A stretch of 62,835 nucleotides of DNA, filler included, from Globobulimina sp. (lineage: Eukaryota): the NCBI GenBank assembly GCA_003354225.1. It is 33 parts of 33 records of this genome, joined end to end, with 100 filler letters (N's around TTAATTAATTAA, not from the genome) between each part and the next. Parts side by side here need not be neighbours in the genome. Positions count along the whole stretch, not along the records: positions 1 to 1,808 come from PIVH01011701.1; 32 more parts are not named here. One strand, given 5' to 3'. Below are positions 1 to 43,775 of this stretch, one piece after another. Numbering within the stretch: position 1 is the first letter of the stretch; each line of letters starts with the position of its first letter. The position numbers were made by a program, and so were the translations under genes. The notes under the pieces are model-generated. The model did not search any database and was not told the origin of the DNA. It saw only the letters and a program-made list of their open reading frames with translations.

Positions 1-248
1 TTTTGCTCCGACACCAATAAAAAACAGGAAACCAAAACAAATATGAGAAAAAAGTAAGAAGACGAGGGGAATAAAAATGTGAAAAATATATAAAAAAAGA
101 AGAAAACATCAAAAAAAAAAATGAATATGTAAAACAAAGAAGAATATATACTGAATTTTAGTGGTGATGCGTATAGAACATTTATAAAACTTTATACGAA
201 TCAACAGCTAAATCCGTGAAAACAAAATATAACCGAACTGAGATAAAC

Positions 249-1793
249 TCAGCAAACATTAAAACTTTTTGATTGTAAATTTTTAATTCCTTCTACAAAT
301 TTCCTCCAGTGATTGTGTGTTAACAATCTGCGGATTTCCATTTCGGCCTTTTGTGGTAATATAAAAAACTGATTTATGAATATGTTCAAACTAAACAACA
401 ACAAACAATCGTTTCGACAAAGTTTTTATTATTCAGATTCAAAACAGTCAGAAACATTACTAAAATAAACAAACCTCCGCAAAGAACTCCGCACTGATTT
501 CAAATGGTTGTTTTTTGACAAATCTCTCTTCCAATTCCGACTCAACATCTATTATCTGAATATTACATGCCATTCAATACATATTATTTTGTCTGATCGA
601 CTCTATTACTTAACATTTGTCCGGCTCTCATAAGAAATGTTGATAGCGAATGCAGCTTCCGGTCGAATAGACGTTTTTATAATATCTTTAGCCACAATAT
701 ATCTTTGCGTATTTGTCATTAAATTTTTAAATCTACGCAAAGACTGTAAAAATATCGCAATTTCATCGCACCTAAACACAAAAACAAAAATCTAATCCAC
801 AAAGCATACACTGTCCAGATACACATACCATGTTTGTGCTAAATATCTGTATAAATATTCTCTGCCTATTGCTGAATCCAAGCAAGTGGACAAATTCTTT
901 AAAAACGGCACCTCGCTGCCTTGAAACTGTTGTGTAATATCATTTAAATGTCCTTTGAGATTCTCTCCAGTGATTAATTGTGCCGCAAGCGAGAATATCT
1001 CATCCATCGCATACTTAACACCAAAATTATACTGCGACTTGAAATAATATGAAAAGGTTTGATGCATAGCTTGCAACATTGGGTCAAAATGGGTGATATT
1101 AATACCCATTCTTTGATGCACTGCGCCTAATGCTGATAATAAGGAATGTAAATCAATATTATCCGTAATTAAAAAGCGCATTAACCATCCCATCATTTCC
1201 AAATATCGCAAACTTACATTCTCAATCTTTTGCTCGTTGCTAAAATTAGATTTCATTACTTTTTTCATCTCATCGTTGGCTGATAACATTGTGAAGAAAA
1301 TAGAACATCCGATTTCCTGTACGTATCATGTCAGAATTCAGATTTTCAAATTGCAATATACAGAAATTACAGATCAGAAACGTTTAAGGGAAACACGGAA
1401 ACACTTAACCAATTGATCGGAAAGGCAGAGAGGATCGATATTTTCTTTCCAAAATGTCGCAGCGATTTTGCAAATACGACTTGAAATATATTTGCCGGTG
1501 ATGCCATTATTGACAAGTAAAAGTTTACTGTGTCTTTTCTGATTTGATGTAAGAGACGGGTTCAATTCTAATGATGGTAAGGGAGTTAAACATAGAAATT
1601 CTGATGCTTTTGTAGGCGATTTTGGCGGTGGTATTGGATGCATCACGTTATTCGAAGAAGATAATTCTGGTAAATTTGATGATCTTATTGCATGATGTTG
1701 AGGAGGTTGTAGTGATAACGAAGTATTATTCTCAGTGGTGTTAGGAGTGTCTGGTGCTTTGGCACGCTGTAAATTACAAGATTGGTTACCCAT
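249..1793 (-). CDS. N-acylated globin-RGS fusion protein, ~402 aa, 5 exons (1793-1410, 1316-829, 771-615, 555-475, 347-249)
   Basis: Four GT-AG introns give one continuous frame (1209 nt). N-terminus MGNQSC. Globin segment FWKENI..EIGCSIFFTML..LSALGAVHQRMGINITHFDPM. RGS segment CLDSAIGREYLYRYLAQTWCDEIAIFL..IRPEAAFAINIS..FFAEAEMEIRRLLTHNHWRKFV. Confidence 0.8.
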
Positions 1794-1808
1794 TTTAAAA
1801 TTAATTTT

Positions 1809-7632: not shown

Positions 7633-9405
7633 ATCAATAGCTTCTTCAAATATATCCTCTTTAAGTATATGTTCTGGATTATCCAACGCACTGCGTGCCA
7701 CTTTGGCGATTCTTTCAAACATATCCGCATTCAAATTAATCTGTGCCGGCGATCGATCATCGCAATATTTGTTGTATAGCGCATTGAATTTTCGTTTTGC
7801 ATCGGCTCTCCATTCCTGTGCTTCCAATATAAACAATAAATTATTTATCGTCAGATTGCTGGTCATAAACATGCGTAAACAATACATCGTCATCGGATTA
7901 TCAATAATTGCTTGCAACGAACTTAATTCCTTAAAACTCTCCTCATCCACACTCGATTCGCGTGCTTCTGATTTGACAAAATCGGCAAACGACCGATGCA
8001 CTCTTCGCTCAATGACACTCGTTCGATGCTTCTCTTTCACATCGATTTCCCACACCCGATCACCGGAAGTTATCTGTGTGATTTTCCTGGACGCCATCAT
8101 TCCCAACGCTTTTCCCGATTTCTTATTACTGCCGTCATTATAACTCGCATTGCCACCGCCAAAAATGTCCATGATCCGCTCGCATAGCGCTTCCACGATG
8201 AATAGCTCGTCCTTATCCTCCATCAGATTCTCCACTGTCTGCGCCCCGCCCAATAAGCCAATGACGCCCGCCATCCGCATCAACAATTCCGTCAAACGCG
8301 CGATGGGCTGCACCACCAAACTCATCGTCGACGCCGTGACAAACAGCGTCGACGTGGCGAAGATCAATATGGCAAATAAGGTCAGACACATTCCCAACGC
8401 TGCTTCCTCCAAAACGTTGCTGCGAATATCGAACTGGATATAATCTGTACTGGTATCGGCGTCCATGTACAAGGTCCACATCTCGATATTCCTGCGATCC
8501 GCGATGGTGTGTTGATCGTTGTATAACTCGACACCTCCGATATTGATATATAATAAGGGCACTCCCACCGCCTGCAAGATATGGTACGAAGCCTGGAAAT
8601 CCAAACCGCCGTCGATGCAGTTTTTGAATAAATAGGCGCAGGTTGTGGCTGCGTCGGCGTATGAAGCACCGGAAGGGTCCATCCACGGCAACACCAACAC
8701 CAACACCAGGACCAAGACAATGACTTTCTTTGTCACTGCTTCCGACACAATCTGGCCCACTTTGGAAGAGCCCGCATCCACTACATTCTTCTCAGTGTCC
8801 TCCTCGTCTTCGACTTGAAAGAATTTGAAGACGCGCAACACCCGCAATAAGCGGCTAAACCGTATCATCCGAATGGCCTTTAATGCCACTGCAGAACGGC
8901 CGGATTTCCCTGCTTTGCTGGCTTGCGTATTGGCGATATTTATGTCGCCGTCGCCTGCTCCGAATAATGCTAATAATAAAGTCAAGTCCGGGATCATTGA
9001 GACCATCGCAATGAAATCTAACCAGAACCAAAAGGACAGGAAATAACCACGGCGTACTAACGAGGCTACTATCAATTCGATGAAAAAAAACCAAAATACT
9101 AGTAATAGGATAATATCTGTGCTAATGTCGATGCTTTGCGGCAGGAAAGCGATGGTGAAATCGTACGCTAATAAGGAAGTTATAGTGGCCACTATGGACG
9201 CGAACATCCAGAGTCCTCCATCCAGGAATTTCTCGCAACGGCGCGCCTTATCTGGCTTAATAACTCGATCTCGGAAACTCGATCTCTGACTGTCTGAATC
9301 TGAACTTGTCGGTGTCGCTTTTTGTTGGTTTTTGGGTGTGGCGATGTATGCTAATTTACGACCAAATTTGTTGTTGTTGAAGAACGTAAATAGAGATTTG
9401 GGCAT
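7633..9405 (-). CDS. Ion-transport/voltage-sensor-like membrane module + HAMP-like helix + RGS domain, 3' truncated, intronless
   Basis: S2 FFFIELIV, S3 FWFWLDFIAMVSMIPD, Arg/Lys-periodic S4 KAIRMIRFSRLLRVLRVFK, further TM helices, LVVQPIARLTELL, then RGS motifs LQAIIDNP..LRMFM..NNLLFILEAQEW..YNKYCDDRSPAQINL..IFEEA. Confidence 0.8.
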
Positions 9406-9817
9406 TTTTGCGTTTGATGAGGTTTAAAAGATATGTCTGTNNNNNNNNNNNNNNNNNNNNNNNNNNNNNNNNNNNNNNNNNNNNTTAATTAATTAANNNN
9501 NNNNNNNNNNNNNNNNNNNNNNNNNNNNNNNNNNNNNNNNTCGTGCATTATTAAATTGTTTTTTTTTGCGATTTTGACGTCAGTAATTCTTTTTTTTTTT
9601 TTTTTAATTAAATTTTTTGTCAACTGTTTTTCGGTTTAATTAGAAAATTAGAGATACACTACAAAAAAACACTAGCAAGTTACTTTCGATTGTGTGTAGA
9701 GCATCCTTGCCTAACACACAAGCCATATATCAGAAAATTGAAAACTAATATAAATCTAAATCTAATCGCGTCACAATTGCTCAACAATCAATAGAACTCG
9801 AATCATCATATATATCA

Positions 9818-41968: not shown

Positions 41969-43775
41969 ATGGAATCACAGCAAAGGTGCTAAAACAGGCT
42001 GTTCCTGCGATTGCTCAGCCATTAACTGATCTCATAAACGACTCCCTTCGAACTAAAACTTTCCCCGCAGCATGGAAAAAAGCAATTATTACCCCAATTT
42101 ACAAAGCTAAAGGGGCAAAAGATGATCCCGCGAGTTACCGCCCAATCTCTTTACTAAGTGTCGTAGGAAAGTTGGCTGAACGGGTTGTCACTGATCAGCT
42201 GTCTAAATATTTCGAAGACAACAAAATCCTTCCAAAATAGCAGTCGTTATTTCGGAAGGGCCACAGCACAAAAACGGCTCTTCTGGATCTAACTGACTCT
42301 TTCTATCTTGCCATGAGCAAAAAGCAACTAACTGCGTTGATTTTGCTCGATTATTCCAAAGCGTTTGACACCATAAATTACGACATCCTAATAGATAAAT
42401 TGCAGAAATATGGAGTGCTAGAAAAAGAGTGGTTCTTATCATACCTAACTGGTCGTGCCCAGCAGACGAAAGTCAATGATTCTCTATCCGATTCTGAGAC
42501 TGCGTTAGCCGGGTGCCCTCAGGGATCAGTCCTCTCACCTCTACTTTTTATAATATACATGGCAGATCCTAATACAGTAACATCTCATGTTCAATCAAGA
42601 CAATATGCTGATGACACACAGCTCTTCCTTAGCTTTTCCCCTAACAAGGGAGAAAGTTGGGATTCTGCGGCTCTTCGGGTTTCTCAGTTGATAGGAGATG
42701 ACCTGAAGGCCATACAAGAATGGGCGAAAGCAAATTGTCTAAAATTAAATCCATCAAAGACAGAGTTTTTGTTAATCGGTAGTGAGCCACTTCGAAAAAA
42801 GGCAAACATGGTGCTTGAATTCGGAGGGGCGCCACTAATACCTGTTGACAAAGCCAAATCTCTTGGAGTAATTATTGATTCCAATATGACTTTCAATGAG
42901 CATATTGATCTGGTCTGTAAGCGTATGGCTTCTAAACTGGGTCAGCTCTATGGGGTCAAAGGCTGTTTGTCCTTCCGTTTTAAAAAAACGCTTGTTCAAT
43001 CACTAGTATTGAGTCATTTGAACTATTGCGAACTGCTCTATCTGTGTACCACCAAACAGAACAGAGATCGTTTCCAACGGATTCAAAACTGGGCTGCTCG
43101 TTTTGTCTGTAACGCGGACAGAATGACAACAGCCCTTCCTCTCATCCGGCGATTGAAATGGCAAACAGTAAATGAACTGTATATGTTACGTTTGAGCAAG
43201 ATGACCTGGCAGTGTGCAAACAAGCCGGGTCAACTGCCGTCATACATAACTGAAAAATTCGAGTTTAGAGATGACATAAAGCGTACAACGAGATACAGTA
43301 CACATGCAATAGTGGCGGAGCCAGATATAGGTAGAACCAACTCCTATGGTCAAAGAATGTTCAGATGGCGCATGGCTCGCTTGGCGAACACAATTGGTCA
43401 TGAAGGATTGTTGAACCAGCCTCTGGCTACATTCCAACAAACTGCCCTCAGCAAATGGAATCAAATAAACCCTGACAAATTTTCCTTATATTGACGAAAC
43501 ACCGATTTTGGACTTCCTACTACCGATTTTGACATCTCACATGAATTTGACTCACTACCCAATTATGACCGTAAAATGATATCATTAATATTTAAATTTC
43601 TAAAATCCAGATACTATGTCTATAATATGTATAACTAGTCATTTTGTGTAGTTTTAATCATTATCGATGTTCTTCCTGTTTGTTTGTCATGTAAATATTC
43701 CTCGTTCAAAATACCTTCATACTTTGAAGAATAAAAGGATTTGTTGTAGCCTTTGGCGTGATACATTGTAGCCCA
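41969..43775 (+). mobile_element. LINE retrotransposon 3' part: RT (to 43494) with one in-frame TAG at 42238-42240, plus 3' UTR
   Basis: YRPISLLS, LDYSKAFD, GCPQGSVLSPLLF, YADDT and LNPSKTE motifs. Confidence 0.92.

What the first reader, a model, noticed from the sequence alone, without database searches (positions are those of the whole stretch)
249..1793. Complete membrane-targeted globin-RGS fusion gene: candidate O2/NO-sensing GAP for G-alpha
Seen: the ORF track splits this locus, but four canonical introns (1409-1317, 828-772, 614-556, 474-348) give a 402-aa frame. It runs MGNQSC, a disordered linker, a globin-like block with a proximal-His-like LGAVHQRMGI, then a full RGS box. Known: globin-coupled sensors normally drive MCP, GGDEF or kinase outputs; RGS domains are G-alpha GAPs; Gly2 plus a nearby Cys indicates myristoylation/palmitoylation. 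Inference: haem ligation state could tune G-protein inactivation at the membrane, which would suit a sediment protist tracking oxygen gradients. By eye, CD1 appears to be Met and E7 Val rather than Phe and His, so ligand chemistry may be unusual. I do not know this architecture as a characterised system.
Basis: partly seen in the sequence, partly recalled or inferred. Interest (0 to 1): 0.9.

Follow-up and report, generated by a model that had tools for sequence, protein, structure and literature searches.

The report
Lipid-anchored globin–RGS fusion gene, foraminifer
A five-exon gene encodes a probably membrane-anchored protein that joins a haemoglobin-like sensor domain to a G-protein "off-switch" (RGS) domain; it belongs to a large, so far undescribed family of sediment-dwelling foraminifera and could link oxygen, nitric oxide or redox state directly to G-protein signalling.

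Summary
On the minus strand, exons 1793-1410, 1316-829, 771-615, 555-475 and 347-249 give a 402-aa frame with four GT..AG introns. Contigs of four public runs from three studies skip these introns. The spliced protein is colinear with transcript-derived homologues.

The middle block is a true globin homologue. A family profile hits Hell's Gate globin I at 6e-17 and the HGbRL globin at 6e-14. A homologue's AlphaFold model matches HGbI with TM 0.85. The proximal His is kept in 24 of 24 close relatives. The C-terminal half is an RGS box: Pfam RGS in 21 of 24, RGS2 at 3e-13, and the RGS4 Asn128 equivalent kept.

Ninety-seven of 140 sequences examined carry both domains, always globin first. All 17 that carry a species name are foraminifera.

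Haem binding, GAP activity, acylation and coupling between the domains are inferred, not shown. My literature searches found no description of this architecture. I rate it a new variant of the globin-coupled-sensor idea, with a eukaryotic G-protein output.

The parts
1794..1808 (-). Visible part of the 5' UTR. The piece ends at 1808.
   Evidence: Contigs of X1, X3 and X4 run only about 10-11 nt beyond 1808 (table 8). There is no in-frame stop in the 15 visible nt.
1410..1793 (-). Exon 1 (aa 1-128): start codon, MGNQSC acylation motif, S/L/P/N-rich disordered tail, basic KRHS motif, globin helix A and the start of helix B.
1776..1793 (-). Codons for M-G-N-Q-S-C, a candidate N-myristoylation site (Gly2) with Cys6.
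   Evidence: Fits a PROSITE-like pattern (the pattern itself is recalled). 22 of 24 close homologues start with MG; 60 of 97 two-domain members do.
1317..1409 (-). Intron 1 (93 nt, GT..AG, phase 0).
   Evidence: Joint 1315>1409 in all 4 runs.
829..1316 (-). Exon 2 (aa 129-291): globin helices B-H, the conserved inter-domain segment and the first RGS helices.
960..1481 (-). Globin domain (aa 105-247), interrupted by intron 1.
   Evidence: Family HMM built without the window: 256.8 bits, positions 1-149 of 149. Profile hits to HGbI and HGbRL. Fold match of the homologue model.
1116..1118 (-). Codon of His195, the proximal (F8) histidine candidate.
   Evidence: Aligned to the F8 His of HGbI. His in 24 of 24 close relatives and in 113 of 122 wider relatives with a residue there.
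772..828 (-). Intron 2 (57 nt, GT..AG, phase 2).
   Evidence: Joint 769>827 in X3 and X6; matching loose ends in X1 and X4.
615..771 (-). Exon 3 (aa 291-343): middle of the RGS box.
639..641 (-). Codon of Asn335, the equivalent of RGS4 Asn128 (contacts the G-alpha switch II Gln).
   Evidence: Alignment to RGS2. Asn in 20 of the 21 close relatives that have a residue there. Role of Asn128: PMC8252600, passage.
556..614 (-). Intron 3 (59 nt, GT..AG, phase 0).
   Evidence: Joint 555>615 in all 4 runs.
475..555 (-). Exon 4 (aa 344-370): RGS box.
348..474 (-). Intron 4 (127 nt, GT..AG, phase 0).
   Evidence: Joint 346>474 (cut +1) in all 4 runs.
249..347 (-). Exon 5 (aa 371-402 plus the TGA stop at 249-251): last RGS helices.
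273..857 (-). RGS domain (aa 282-395), interrupted by introns 2-4.
   Evidence: Family HMM built without the window: 203.6 bits, positions 2-140 of 141. Pfam RGS in 21 of 24 homologues. PDB RGS2 at 3e-13. RGS8 and RGS4 fold matches with TM 0.83-0.89.
1..248 (-). 3' UTR (T-rich); it reaches at least to the edge of the piece.
   Evidence: Contigs cover 1-317 (X4 record 13; X3 records 7 and 8).

Best explanation
WHAT IT IS. The locus is an intact, transcribed five-exon gene of a foraminifer-like rhizarian. It encodes a 402-aa signalling protein with four parts:
1. An N-terminal Met-Gly acylation motif that probably tethers it to the membrane.
2. A disordered tail of about 90 aa, ending in a conserved basic-Ser motif.
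3. A 3-on-3 globin domain without a D helix. It is most like the bacterial HGbI/HGbRL group and most likely binds haem b through His195 (F8). Its distal pocket is apolar: Phe B10, Met CD1, Val E7, Tyr E11.
4. An R4/RGS2-like RGS box, joined to the globin through a conserved 35-aa connector.

PROPOSED MECHANISM. A diatomic gas (O2, NO or CO) binds the haem iron, or the iron changes oxidation or coordination state. This moves helix E and the CE loop, as in the open and closed forms of HGbRL. The movement passes through helix H and the connector to the RGS box. That changes how well the RGS box accelerates GTP hydrolysis on a membrane-bound G-alpha. The gas or redox state would thus set the lifetime of G-protein signals.

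SHOWN: the gene model and its splicing; both domain homologies; conservation of the key residues; the size and taxonomic range of the family.
INFERRED: haem binding, myristoylation, GAP activity, and allosteric coupling with its direction.
For: GENE.
- Canonical introns.
- Intron-skipping contigs in 4 runs from 3 studies.
- Colinearity with homologues.
- Of the 29 CDS differences listed between the runs and the window, 17 are synonymous and 4 are not in aa 88-402, against 4 and 4 in the tail. This fits purifying selection on the folded part.

GLOBIN.
- phmmer with exon 2 alone finds 118 cluster representatives. Pfam calls Globin in 37 of them and RGS in 54.
- Profile against PDB: HGbI 6.4e-17, HGbRL globin 5.8e-14, neuroglobin about 1e-7.
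- The model of homologue P0007 has 7 helices (A, B, C, E-H) and matches HGbI with TM 0.85 and rmsd 2.2.
- F8 His is kept in 24 of 24 and in 113 of 122. Known non-haem globins lack it (PMC8717448, passages).
- Met at CD1 and Val at E7 lie within the ranges accepted for haem globins (PMC1457004).
- The family keeps Lys or Arg at E10 (K 71, R 24) and Trp at E17 (92 of 122). In HGbRL these positions hold the haem-ligating Lys52 and the pivot Trp59 (PMC4476040).

RGS.
- Pfam RGS in 21 of 24.
- RGS2 at 3e-13 and RGS4 at 5.5e-10.
- Fold TM 0.82-0.89.
- The Asn128 equivalent is kept, and the Glu aligned to the second Glu of RGS2's C-E-E-N motif is kept (23 of 23).

COUPLING.
- The inter-domain segment is nearly as conserved as the globin: 0.63 against 0.70 mean top-residue frequency.
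- Domain order is fixed in 97 of 97.
- pTM is 0.69 even though about 100 residues are disordered.

SETTING.
- All 17 members with a species name are foraminifera: Bolivina, Nonionella, Ammonia, Elphidium, Reticulomyxa.
- Rhizarians have most GPCR and G-protein components (PMC3971589, PMC5784254, passages).
Against: - The window's own sequence, taken exon by exon, passes no Pfam threshold. Exon 2 alone reaches only E = 0.014 against HGbI. The domain calls therefore rest on profiles and on homologues.
- Pfam Globin is found in only 3 of the 24 closest relatives.
- CD1 is Met, Leu or Ile rather than Phe in all 24 close relatives. B10 is Phe, not Tyr. The window has Arg, not Lys, at E10. The pocket offers no obvious hydrogen-bond donor for O2, and Lys-His hexacoordination is not available to this protein.
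- The RGS4 Asn88 equivalent is Ile, Leu or Met in the family. The Asp163 equivalent is Asn. Some RGS-homology domains have no GAP activity (PMC3971589, passage).
- No G-alpha of this organism was examined.
- Foldseek E-values are only about 1e-3 for the two-domain query.
- The structural model is of a homologue that is 50% identical overall, not of the window's protein.
- The runs that show splicing are not on record as RNA.
Confidence: 0.5

Rival explanations
1. The globin binds haem but does not control the RGS allosterically. The two domains would act side by side on G-alpha or at the membrane. For example, the globin might itself bind G-alpha-GDP in a redox-dependent way, as neuroglobin does. 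Or it might work as a membrane-tethered NO dioxygenase or redox enzyme that the RGS box merely brings to G-protein sites.
For: - Oxidised neuroglobin acts as a GDI for G-alpha-i/o (PMC4842972, abstract in the listing; PMC7475203, passage).
- Neuroglobin is among the fold and profile hits.
- Acylated membrane globins with signalling roles exist: globin X (PMC3176823) and C. elegans GLB-26 (PMC3520999), both seen only as titles and abstract starts in the listing.
Against: - The fixed domain order in 97 of 97 and the strongly conserved connector suggest mechanical coupling rather than simple co-localisation.
- The nearest structural relative, HGbRL, is itself proposed to relay a haem-driven movement to a C-terminal domain (PMC4476040).
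Confidence: 0.17
2. The globin-like domain has lost haem. It would bind another ligand (a lipid or fatty acid, as in RsbR) or serve only as a dimerisation or regulatory module for a constitutive RGS.
For: - CD1 Phe is replaced in all 24 close relatives.
- There is no polar distal residue.
- Pfam Globin is weak or absent in most close relatives.
- Non-haem globin families exist (PMC8717448).
- HGbI itself interacts with lipids (PMC11203436, abstract).
Against: - The known non-haem globins have lost the proximal His (PMC8717448). Here it is kept in 24 of 24 and in 113 of 122.
- Met, Leu or Ile at CD1 and Val or Thr at E7 occur in bona fide haem globins (PMC1457004).
Confidence: 0.15
3. The RGS box is an RGS-homology scaffold without GAP activity, as in axin, the GRKs or the sorting nexins. 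The protein would then couple a haem signal to some partner other than G-alpha-GTP.
For: - The Asn88 equivalent is hydrophobic in all members with a residue there.
- The Asp163 equivalent is Asn.
- Axin is among the profile hits, at 3e-6.
- Some RGS domains have lost GAP activity (PMC3971589, passage).
Against: - The best matches are catalytic R4-type RGS proteins (RGS2, 18, 1, 4, 8, 16), with lower E-values than axin.
- The Asn128 equivalent, the residue that contacts the catalytic Gln of G-alpha, is conserved (PMC8252600).
- RGS2, an active GAP, also has Asn at the Asp163 position and Cys at the position of Cys292. The alignment is; the RGS2 residue roles are recalled.
Confidence: 0.15
4. 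The fusion is an artefact: a chimeric assembly, or two adjacent genes wrongly joined by the reader's splice model.
For: The window is a patchwork of 1.8-kb pieces, and the ORF list splits the locus.
Against: - The end of the globin and the start of the RGS lie in one uninterrupted exon, 829-1316.
- Single contigs in independent runs span exons 3, 2 and 1.
- 96 database proteins from several genera share the same two-domain order.
Confidence: 0.01

Closest known systems
Globin-coupled sensors (GCS: HemAT, globin-diguanylate cyclases, globin-kinases)
   Same: An N-terminal globin comes first, followed by a C-terminal signalling output domain in one polypeptide. The presumed logic is that the haem ligand state controls the output.
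   Different: - The outputs listed for GCS are MCP, kinase, diguanylate cyclase and adenylate cyclase domains (PMC7475203, passage). 'RGS' occurs 0 times in that review.
- The review passage I read (PMC7475203) does not say in which organisms chimeric GCS occur; that they are mainly prokaryotic is recalled. This protein is eukaryotic.
- Classical GCS globins belong to the sensor/protoglobin lineage. This globin matches PF00042 (37 of 118) far more often than Protoglobin (3 of 118).
HGbRL of Methylacidiphilum infernorum (globin fused to a Roadblock/LC7 domain), and its relative HGbI
   Same: - These are the closest solved globins by sequence profile (5.8e-14 and 6.4e-17) and by fold.
- There is no D helix.
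- Lys or Arg at E10 and Trp at E17 are shared with the family.
- In HGbRL the partner domain belongs to a family that includes a GTPase-activating protein (MglB). So that protein too is a globin joined to a putative GTPase regulator (PMC4476040, passages).
   Different: - HGbRL is bacterial.
- Its output is Roadblock/LC7 and its target is a small Ras-like GTPase. Here they are an RGS box and a heterotrimeric G-alpha.
- HGbRL has Tyr B10, Phe CD1, Gln E7 and Lys E10. The window has Phe, Met, Val and Arg.
- Whether the site-swapped dimer of HGbRL is shared is not known.
Neuroglobin as a G-alpha-i/o guanine-nucleotide dissociation inhibitor
   Same: It is a globin whose redox state feeds into heterotrimeric G-protein signalling at membranes (PMC4842972, abstract; PMC7475203, passage).
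   Different: - Neuroglobin acts in trans, as a GDI on G-alpha-GDP, and has no RGS domain.
- Its haem is His-His hexacoordinate, with His at E7.
N-acylated membrane globins (vertebrate globin X, C. elegans GLB-26)
   Same: A globin with an N-terminal extension carrying a myristoylation motif, bound to the membrane and with a proposed sensing or redox role (PMC3176823 and PMC3520999, titles and abstract starts only).
   Different: These are single-domain globins with no fused output domain, and they are found in animals.
R4-subfamily RGS proteins, especially RGS2
   Same: - They are the best RGS matches (RGS2 3e-13; RGS18, RGS1, RGS4, RGS8, RGS16) and match in fold (TM 0.82-0.89).
- Asn128 equivalent is kept.
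- The family has Cys and Asn where RGS2 has them (positions of Cys292 and Asn382).
   Different: - The Asn88 equivalent is Ile, Leu or Met.
- R4 RGS proteins have short amphipathic N-termini, not a globin.
- That the RGS2 residues set G-alpha-q selectivity is recalled, not checked here.

Membership tests
Globin superfamily, haem-binding 3-on-3 globins (Pfam PF00042) | 3-on-3 alpha-helical globin fold | tested here: met
   Tested on homologue P0007 (65% identical over exon 2), not on the window's own protein. The model has helices A, B, C, E, F, G and H. It matches HGbI 3s1i_A with TM 0.85 and rmsd 2.2 over 140 columns, and neuroglobin with TM 0.69-0.74.
Globin superfamily, haem-binding 3-on-3 globins (Pfam PF00042) | Proximal His at F8 | tested here: met
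   His195 aligns to the F8 His of HGbI. It is kept in 24 of 24 close relatives and in 113 of 122 wider ones.
Globin superfamily, haem-binding 3-on-3 globins (Pfam PF00042) | Hydrophobic CD1 (classically Phe) and an acceptable E7 residue | tested here: inconclusive
   CD1 is Met149 (M 19, L 4, I 1 in close relatives). E7 is Val162 (T 14 of 24). The classical Phe is not met. The residues do lie within the ranges accepted by Vinogradov et al. 2006 (PMC1457004).
Globin superfamily, haem-binding 3-on-3 globins (Pfam PF00042) | Score above Pfam's gathering threshold | tested here: inconclusive
   The window's exons, scanned singly, give no Globin hit. The spliced protein could not be handed to the tool. 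Among relatives, 3 of 24 and 37 of 118 pass at the E-values used. P0048, P0015, P0020 and P0063 pass the curated cut-offs of both Globin and RGS.
Globin superfamily, haem-binding 3-on-3 globins (Pfam PF00042) | Binds haem b | not testable with these tools
   Needs spectroscopy of recombinant or native protein.
Globin-coupled sensors (S-family GCS) | N-terminal globin followed by a C-terminal output or transmitter domain | tested here: met
   The globin precedes the RGS in 97 of 97 two-domain sequences.
Globin-coupled sensors (S-family GCS) | Globin of the sensor/protoglobin lineage (Pfam Protoglobin PF11563) | tested here: not met
   Protoglobin is matched by 3 of 118 relatives, against 37 for PF00042. 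The best solved relatives are HGbI and HGbRL, then animal and plant globins. I therefore do not file it as a member of the classical GCS lineage. It works like one by architecture.
RGS domain (Pfam PF00615) | RGS-box helical fold and profile match | tested here: met
   Pfam RGS in 21 of 24 close relatives, best 8.4e-10. Profile against PDB gives RGS2 at 3.1e-13. The model matches RGS8, RGS16, RGS4 and RGS1 with TM 0.82-0.89. The window's spliced RGS part scores 203.6 bits against the family HMM built without it. Its single exons pass nothing in Pfam.
RGS domain (Pfam PF00615) | Asn equivalent to RGS4 Asn128 (contacts G-alpha switch II Gln) | tested here: met
   Asn335. Asn in 20 of the 21 close relatives, and 66 of the 83 wider ones, that have a residue there. 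Mapped through the RGS2 alignment. The RGS2-to-RGS4 equivalence of the motif is recalled.
RGS domain (Pfam PF00615) | Asn88 and Asp163 equivalents (contacts to G-alpha switch I Thr) | tested here: not met
   The Asn88 equivalent is Ile295 (I 45, L 19, M 17 in the family). The Asp163 equivalent is Asn382 (N 52), as in RGS2. Roles are from PMC8252600, passage.
RGS domain (Pfam PF00615) | GAP activity on a G-alpha subunit | not testable with these tools
   No G-alpha of this organism was at hand, and no genome is held.
N-myristoylated proteins | Met-Gly start with a permissive following sequence | tested here: met
   MGNQSC fits the PROSITE-like pattern (pattern recalled). 38 of the 60 MG-starting members fit it; 31 of 60 have Ser or Thr at position 6. 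The modification itself cannot be tested here.

The most novel reading that the evidence does not exclude
Foraminifera have built a eukaryotic one-protein route from gas or redox state to G protein. In this reading, a multigene family of membrane-anchored haem sensors directly sets the lifetime of G-alpha-GTP. Different paralogues, with Tyr or Phe at B10, Phe, Met or Leu at CD1, and Gln, Thr, Leu or Val at E7, would be tuned to O2, NO or redox state. This would give these sediment protists a way to steer pseudopodial or migratory behaviour along oxygen and nitrogen-oxide gradients.
Probability: 0.35. Interest if true: 0.85.

Novelty: new variant of a known kind. Interest (0 to 1): 0.72.

Why it matters
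Haem-based gas sensing is well understood in bacteria (globin-coupled sensors, FixL, DosP) and in animals (soluble guanylate cyclase). How free-living protists sense oxygen or NO is largely unknown.

The named hosts of this family are benthic foraminifera. From recall only, such forms are known for living in oxygen-poor sediments, and some denitrify.

A globin wired to an RGS box would be a direct link between gas or redox state and heterotrimeric G-protein signalling. It would add RGS to the list of globin-sensor outputs. It would also give a simple, testable in-vitro system: one soluble protein, one G-alpha, and a spectroscopic read-out.

The family's natural variation in the distal pocket offers a ready-made series for studying ligand tuning. 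The sequences are already public but are named only as RGS-domain or hypothetical proteins. The finding is therefore one of recognition rather than of new sequence.

Tried and rejected
- PFAM ON SINGLE EXONS. No Globin or RGS hit. The pieces are too short or too divergent, and the spliced protein cannot be handed to the outside tools. I worked through database homologues and through in-box HMMs instead.
No whole genome is held for the window, so I made no search for G-alpha, paralogues or neighbours. tblastn of the spliced protein against the window found only the locus itself.
- SEQUENCING RUNS. No RNA holder is listed.
- A joint 314>666 in one X4 contig, with a 22-nt side and non-canonical ends, I disregarded as a probable misjoin.
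- FOLDSEEK gave no hit at E <= 0.001 for the two-domain model. I relied on target-normalised TM-scores and on the sequence profiles.
- PREDICT_COMPLEX, globin domain against RGS domain of A1: the queue was full. It never ran, so there is no verdict on an inter-domain interface.
- hhalign of the window's other RGS-bearing ORF (7633-9423) against A1 gave no meaningful match, so that gene is not a relative of this family.
- LITERATURE. Anantharaman et al. 2011 (Gene 475:63), which catalogues RGS architectures, is not held. Supplementary fig. S6 of PMC3971589 (RGS architectures) could not be seen. Vinogradov et al. 2013, 'Microbial eukaryote globins', was not searched for or opened here. Any of these three might mention the architecture. 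A search for the RGS2 selectivity residues found nothing, so that point stays recalled.
- THE TREE is the quick search only, with midpoint root and 17 of 54 inner branches under 80% support. I use it only to say that paralogues of one species are scattered across it.
Full report
1. WHAT THE WINDOW IS. The 62,835-base window is not one stretch of genome. It holds 64 runs of exactly 44 N. They lie in pairs around the 12-mer TTAATTAATTAA and recur every ~1908 bases. It is therefore 33 pieces of about 1808 nt joined by artificial spacers. The finding lies wholly in piece 1 (1-1808).

The other pieces carry unrelated eukaryotic genes: TBC RabGAP, kinesin, dynein heavy chain, JmjC, TLDc, a reverse transcriptase and others. 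The TBC frame of piece 2 starts in mid-domain at the very edge of that piece. From this I infer that the pieces are not neighbours, so genomic context beyond 1-1808 is not available. No whole genome is held.

2. THE GENE MODEL. They add up to 1209 nt, which is 402 codons plus TGA. The four introns (93, 57, 59 and 127 nt) all begin GT and end AG, and two begin GTTAAGT. Introns are slightly poorer in G+C than exons (0.24-0.33 against 0.32-0.38).

3. INDEPENDENT SUPPORT FROM PUBLIC RUNS. Ten runs were listed for the locus. Six hold it, and none is on record as RNA. I laid four of them, from three studies.
- Their contigs carry joints 1315>1409, 555>615 and 346>474 in all four runs.
- The joint 769>827 appears in X3 and X6. 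In X1 and X4 the contigs end at 772 and 827 with 13-14 loose letters. I checked these by eye against the window, and they match the far exon.
- The skipped ends read CT..AC on the plus strand, which is GT..AG on the gene's strand.
- The two depth bins that lie wholly inside introns (367-427 and 1343-1403) have zero cover in every run.
- X6 record 20 (945 nt) runs 712-769, 827-1315 and 1409-1803 in one contig.
I read these contigs as spliced transcripts. That is an inference, because the library type is not recorded.

Contigs of X1, X3 and X4 extend only about 10-11 nt beyond position 1808. This fits a short 5' UTR, with the ATG at 1793 as the start. Contigs cannot prove a transcript end.

4. 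HOMOLOGUES AND COLINEARITY. A word-indexed search with the exon 2 translation (162 aa), restricted to longer proteins, returned 24 proteins. They are 289-492 aa long, with E-values of 4e-67 to 1.6e-45 and 50-75% identity. Several come from the MMETSP Ammonia transcriptome. RGS was precomputed in 18 of them and Globin in 2.

Their alignment (A1) shows these features:
- an MG start in 22 of 24;
- a variable tail;
- a conserved basic-Ser motif;
- two well-conserved blocks.

The window's spliced protein aligns to all 24 at 40-57% identity. In the 7 rows I printed there is no gap at any exon junction, and the same C-terminal end is reached. HMMs built from the 24 homologues without the window score the spliced protein at 256.8 bits for the globin part (model positions 1-149 of 149). 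The RGS part scores 203.6 bits (positions 2-140 of 141).

The last globin helix and the first RGS helices are both encoded in exon 2. The fusion therefore exists in uninterrupted genomic DNA.

5. IS THE MIDDLE BLOCK A GLOBIN? On its own sequence the case is marginal.
- Pfam finds nothing in the single exons.
- phmmer of exon 2 against PDB sequences gives Hell's Gate globin I (3s1i) as best hit, at only E = 0.014. The alignment does run from helix E to helix H and matches the proximal His.

With relatives the case becomes strong.
- An exhaustive phmmer of exon 2 against 1.84 billion cluster representatives finds 118 proteins at E <= 1e-3, and 70 at <= 1e-10.
- Pfam calls Globin in 37 of the 118, RGS in 54, Protoglobin in 3 and Bac_globin in 2.
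- The profile of the 118 hits HGbI at 6.4e-17, the globin domain of HGbRL (3wfw) at 5.8e-14, haemoglobin alpha at about 5e-10 and neuroglobin at about 2e-7.
- Four individual members (P0048, P0015, P0020, P0063) pass the curated cut-offs of both Globin and RGS.

An AlphaFold2 model of homologue P0007 was built with the A1 alignment. Mean pLDDT is 74.8 and pTM is 0.69. Residues 1-103 fall below pLDDT 50, and 170 residues are at or above 90. It shows seven globin helices with no D helix, a short connector and an RGS bundle. Foldseek against the PDB returns only RGS domains and globins at the top:
- RGS8 2ode_B, target-normalised TM 0.86;
- HGbI 3s1i_A, TM 0.85 and rmsd 2.2 over 140 columns;
- neuroglobin, TM 0.69-0.74.
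The E-values are about 1e-3 and none is below 0.001.

6. THE HAEM POCKET. I used the alignments to HGbI and HGbRL. Their B10, E7, E10, CD1 and E17 residues are given in PMC11203436 (passages) and PMC4476040 (passages). The sequence indices in the alignments agree with those numbers. The window's positions and the family counts are:
- B10 = Phe135. Phe in 20 of 24 close relatives; F 52 and Y 26 in the wider set.
- CD1 = Met149. M 19, L 4, I 1 in close relatives; M 42, L 25, F 20 in the wider set.
- E7 = Val162. Thr in 14 of 24.
- E10 = Arg165. Lys in 18 of 24; K 71 and R 24 in the wider set.
- E11 = Tyr166. Tyr in 21 of 24.
- E17 = Trp172. Trp in 24 of 24, and in 92 of 122.
- F8 = His195. His in 24 of 24, and in 113 of the 122 with a residue there (8 have Tyr, 1 has Glu).

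The loss of the classical CD1 Phe counts against haem binding. However, Vinogradov et al. accept Leu, Met, Ile or Val at CD1, and Leu, Thr, Ala or Val at E7, provided F8 is His (PMC1457004, passage). The known non-haem globins (RsbR, phycocyanin, photoglobin) have lost the proximal His (PMC8717448, passages). I therefore consider haem binding likely but unproven.

The pocket of this protein is apolar. That would favour NO or CO, or weak O2 binding, over a strongly stabilised O2 complex. This last point is inference from general globin chemistry.

7. THE PARALLEL WITH HGbRL. HGbRL is a bacterial putative globin-coupled sensor. In its closed form Lys52 (E10) ligates the haem. Ligand binding displaces that lysine and moves helix E, with Trp59 (E17) as a pivot. 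The authors expect this movement to reach the C-terminal Roadblock/LC7 domain. That domain's family includes MglB, the GAP of the small GTPase MglA (PMC4476040).

The foraminiferal family shares Lys or Arg at E10, Trp at E17 and the missing D helix. It too joins the globin to a GTPase-regulating domain. This is the closest mechanistic precedent I found. The window's own protein has Arg at E10, so the Lys-His hexacoordination seen in HGbRL is not available to it. It might be available to the Lys-bearing paralogues.

8. THE RGS BOX. The evidence for homology is:
- Pfam RGS is found in 21 of the 24 close relatives.
- The wider profile hits RGS2 (3.1e-13), RGS18, RGS1, RGS4 (1agr_E, 5.5e-10), RGS8 and RGS16. 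Axin scores only 3e-6.

In the RGS2 alignment the family's Asn335 sits on the Asn of the E-I-N-I-D motif. That Asn is the RGS4 Asn128 equivalent, which hydrogen-bonds the catalytic Gln of G-alpha (PMC8252600, passage; PMC7572916, passage). It is Asn in 20 of the 21 close relatives, and 66 of the 83 wider ones, that have a residue there.

Other key positions:
- The Glu294 position, aligned to the second Glu of RGS2's C-E-E-N motif, is kept in 23 of 23.
- The Asn88 equivalent is Ile295: I 45, L 19, M 17 in the family.
- The Asp163 equivalent is Asn382, as in RGS2.
- Cys292 matches the Cys of RGS2 in the same motif, in 23 of 23.

Two points here are recalled and were not checked: the equivalence of the RGS2 and RGS4 motifs, and the role of the RGS2 Cys and Asn in G-alpha-q selectivity (the search found nothing). 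I conclude that GAP activity is plausible, that docking on switch I probably differs from RGS4, and that loss of GAP function cannot be excluded.

9. TAIL, ANCHOR AND CONNECTOR. MGNQSC fits the myristoylation pattern (pattern recalled).
- Among the 97 sequences with both domains, 60 start with MG. Many of the rest are N-terminally truncated fragments.
- Of those 60, 38 fit the pattern, 31 have Ser or Thr at position 6, and only 12 have a Cys in residues 3-10. Myristoylation is a plausible family trait. Palmitoylation is not.

Conservation by region, as mean top-residue frequency across the 24 homologues, is:
- tail, aa 1-87: 0.29;
- pre-globin motif, aa 88-104: 0.68;
- globin: 0.70;
- inter-domain connector, aa 248-281: 0.63;
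- RGS: 0.57.

The well-conserved connector, the fixed domain order and the fairly high pTM are indirect signs that the two domains are mechanically coupled. The direct test, a complex prediction of the two domains, never ran because the queue was full.

One search lists 29 differences between the run contigs and the window's CDS. In aa 88-402, 17 are synonymous and 4 are not. Three of those 4 come from minor, divergent contigs over 827-963. In the tail the counts are 4 and 4. This fits purifying selection on the folded part.

10. SIZE AND RANGE OF THE FAMILY. I examined 140 sequences: 139 database proteins plus the window's. Of these, 136 match the family's globin HMM, 98 match its RGS HMM and 97 match both. 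The globin comes first in all 97. Those HMMs included the window's sequence. Most globin-only hits are short fragments.

I looked up 30 proteins by exact sequence. Seventeen listed proteins (representatives or cluster members) carry a species name, and all are foraminifera: Bolivina argentea, Nonionella stella, Elphidium margaritaceum, Ammonia sp. and Reticulomyxa filosa. The remainder come from unnamed metagenome or transcriptome sources. The two R. filosa entries are named 'hypothetical protein' or 'RGS domain-containing protein'. One JGI entry is named 'hemoglobin-like flavoprotein'.

In a quick maximum-likelihood tree of 58 two-domain sequences, the Bolivina and Nonionella paralogues are scattered over several clades. 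This suggests an old multigene family. The tree is a short search with many weak branches. The window's protein sits in the crown group with Bolivina P0001 and P0003, at 61% identity at best, so its own species is not among the named ones.

11. WHAT IS IN PRINT. The searches were:
- 'globin' + 'RGS domain' + 'chimeric';
- 'globin domain' + 'RGS';
- 'foraminifera' + 'globin';
- 'globins' + 'chimeric' + 'unicellular eukaryotes' + 'sensor'.
None brought up a paper describing a globin-RGS protein.

The 2020 globin review PMC7475203 contains 'RGS' 0 times. It lists MCP, kinase, diguanylate cyclase and adenylate cyclase outputs for globin-coupled sensors (passages). The survey of GPCR-system evolution PMC3971589 contains 'globin' 0 times in its main text. 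It does report an independent radiation of RGS proteins in rhizarians, with lineage-specific RGS architectures shown in a supplement I could not open (passages). Anantharaman et al. 2011 is not held. The claim 'not described' therefore rests on these searches only.

12. VERDICT. The best explanation is a membrane-anchored haem sensor that controls an RGS GAP. I put the full mechanism at about 0.5 and the reality of the expressed two-domain gene at above 0.95.

It is not a member of the classical sensor-globin lineage. By architecture it is a new variant of the globin-coupled-sensor principle, with a eukaryotic G-protein output, and it forms a sizeable family specific to foraminifera as far as sampled. 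The decisive experiments are simple: spectra, and GTPase assays in defined haem states.

Noticed in passing
window 1-62835 (N runs at 1809-1852, 1865-1908 and every ~1908 nt after): The window is a concatenation of 33 pieces of about 1808 nt, joined by N44 + TTAATTAATTAA + N44 spacers. Genes in different pieces are not genomic neighbours (inferred from the TBC frame starting in mid-domain at 1909).
   Followed up: partly
window 7633-9423 (-): A 597-aa open frame combines Pfam Ion_trans (residues 72-202, 7.5e-9) with a C-terminal RGS domain (residues 502-594, 9.8e-8), cut by the end of the piece. It is a second unusual RGS fusion in the same organism. It is not related to the globin-RGS family by hhalign.
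   Followed up: partly
window 96-135 (3' UTR of the gene): Contigs of X1, X3 and X4 lack 40 nt that the window has. The joint is 95>136, with non-canonical AA..AC ends and 9 shared letters. It is probably a repeat-mediated indel between strains in a T-rich UTR, not an intron.
   Followed up: no
window 915 and 1613: All four laid runs read A instead of G at 915 (synonymous, Ser262) and G instead of T at 1613 (Thr61Pro, in the disordered tail). The window's source therefore differs from all of them, or carries base errors.
   Followed up: partly
window 827-963: X1 and X3 each hold a minor contig with 12-13 differences over this stretch, mostly synonymous. It is probably a second allele or a very close paralogue of the gene.
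   Followed up: no
window 1527-1538 (-), aa 86-89 K-R-H-S: A basic-x-Ser motif lies just before the globin. The consensus in close homologues is RRxSS, with the Ser at least 90% conserved in A1. A loose form of the motif is found in 40 of 97 two-domain members. It could be a kinase site or part of a myristoyl-electrostatic switch; this is speculation.
   Followed up: partly
database proteins P0076, P0094, P0119, P0042, P0143: Some relatives have other layouts. In P0076 and P0094 a Pfam RGS lies N-terminal of a C-terminal globin-like block. P0119 is a 780-aa protein with a globin and no RGS. P0042 (974 aa) and P0143 (993 aa) carry long extra regions without a Pfam match.
   Followed up: partly
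window 1317-1409 relative to the globin: The only intron inside the globin domain falls at about B3/B4, in phase 0. It is not at the classical B12.2 or G7.0 positions of animal and plant globin genes (classical positions recalled).
   Followed up: no
window 42241-43494 (+): An open frame with a reverse-transcriptase domain (RVT_1, 1.2e-23), presumably a retroelement.
   Followed up: no
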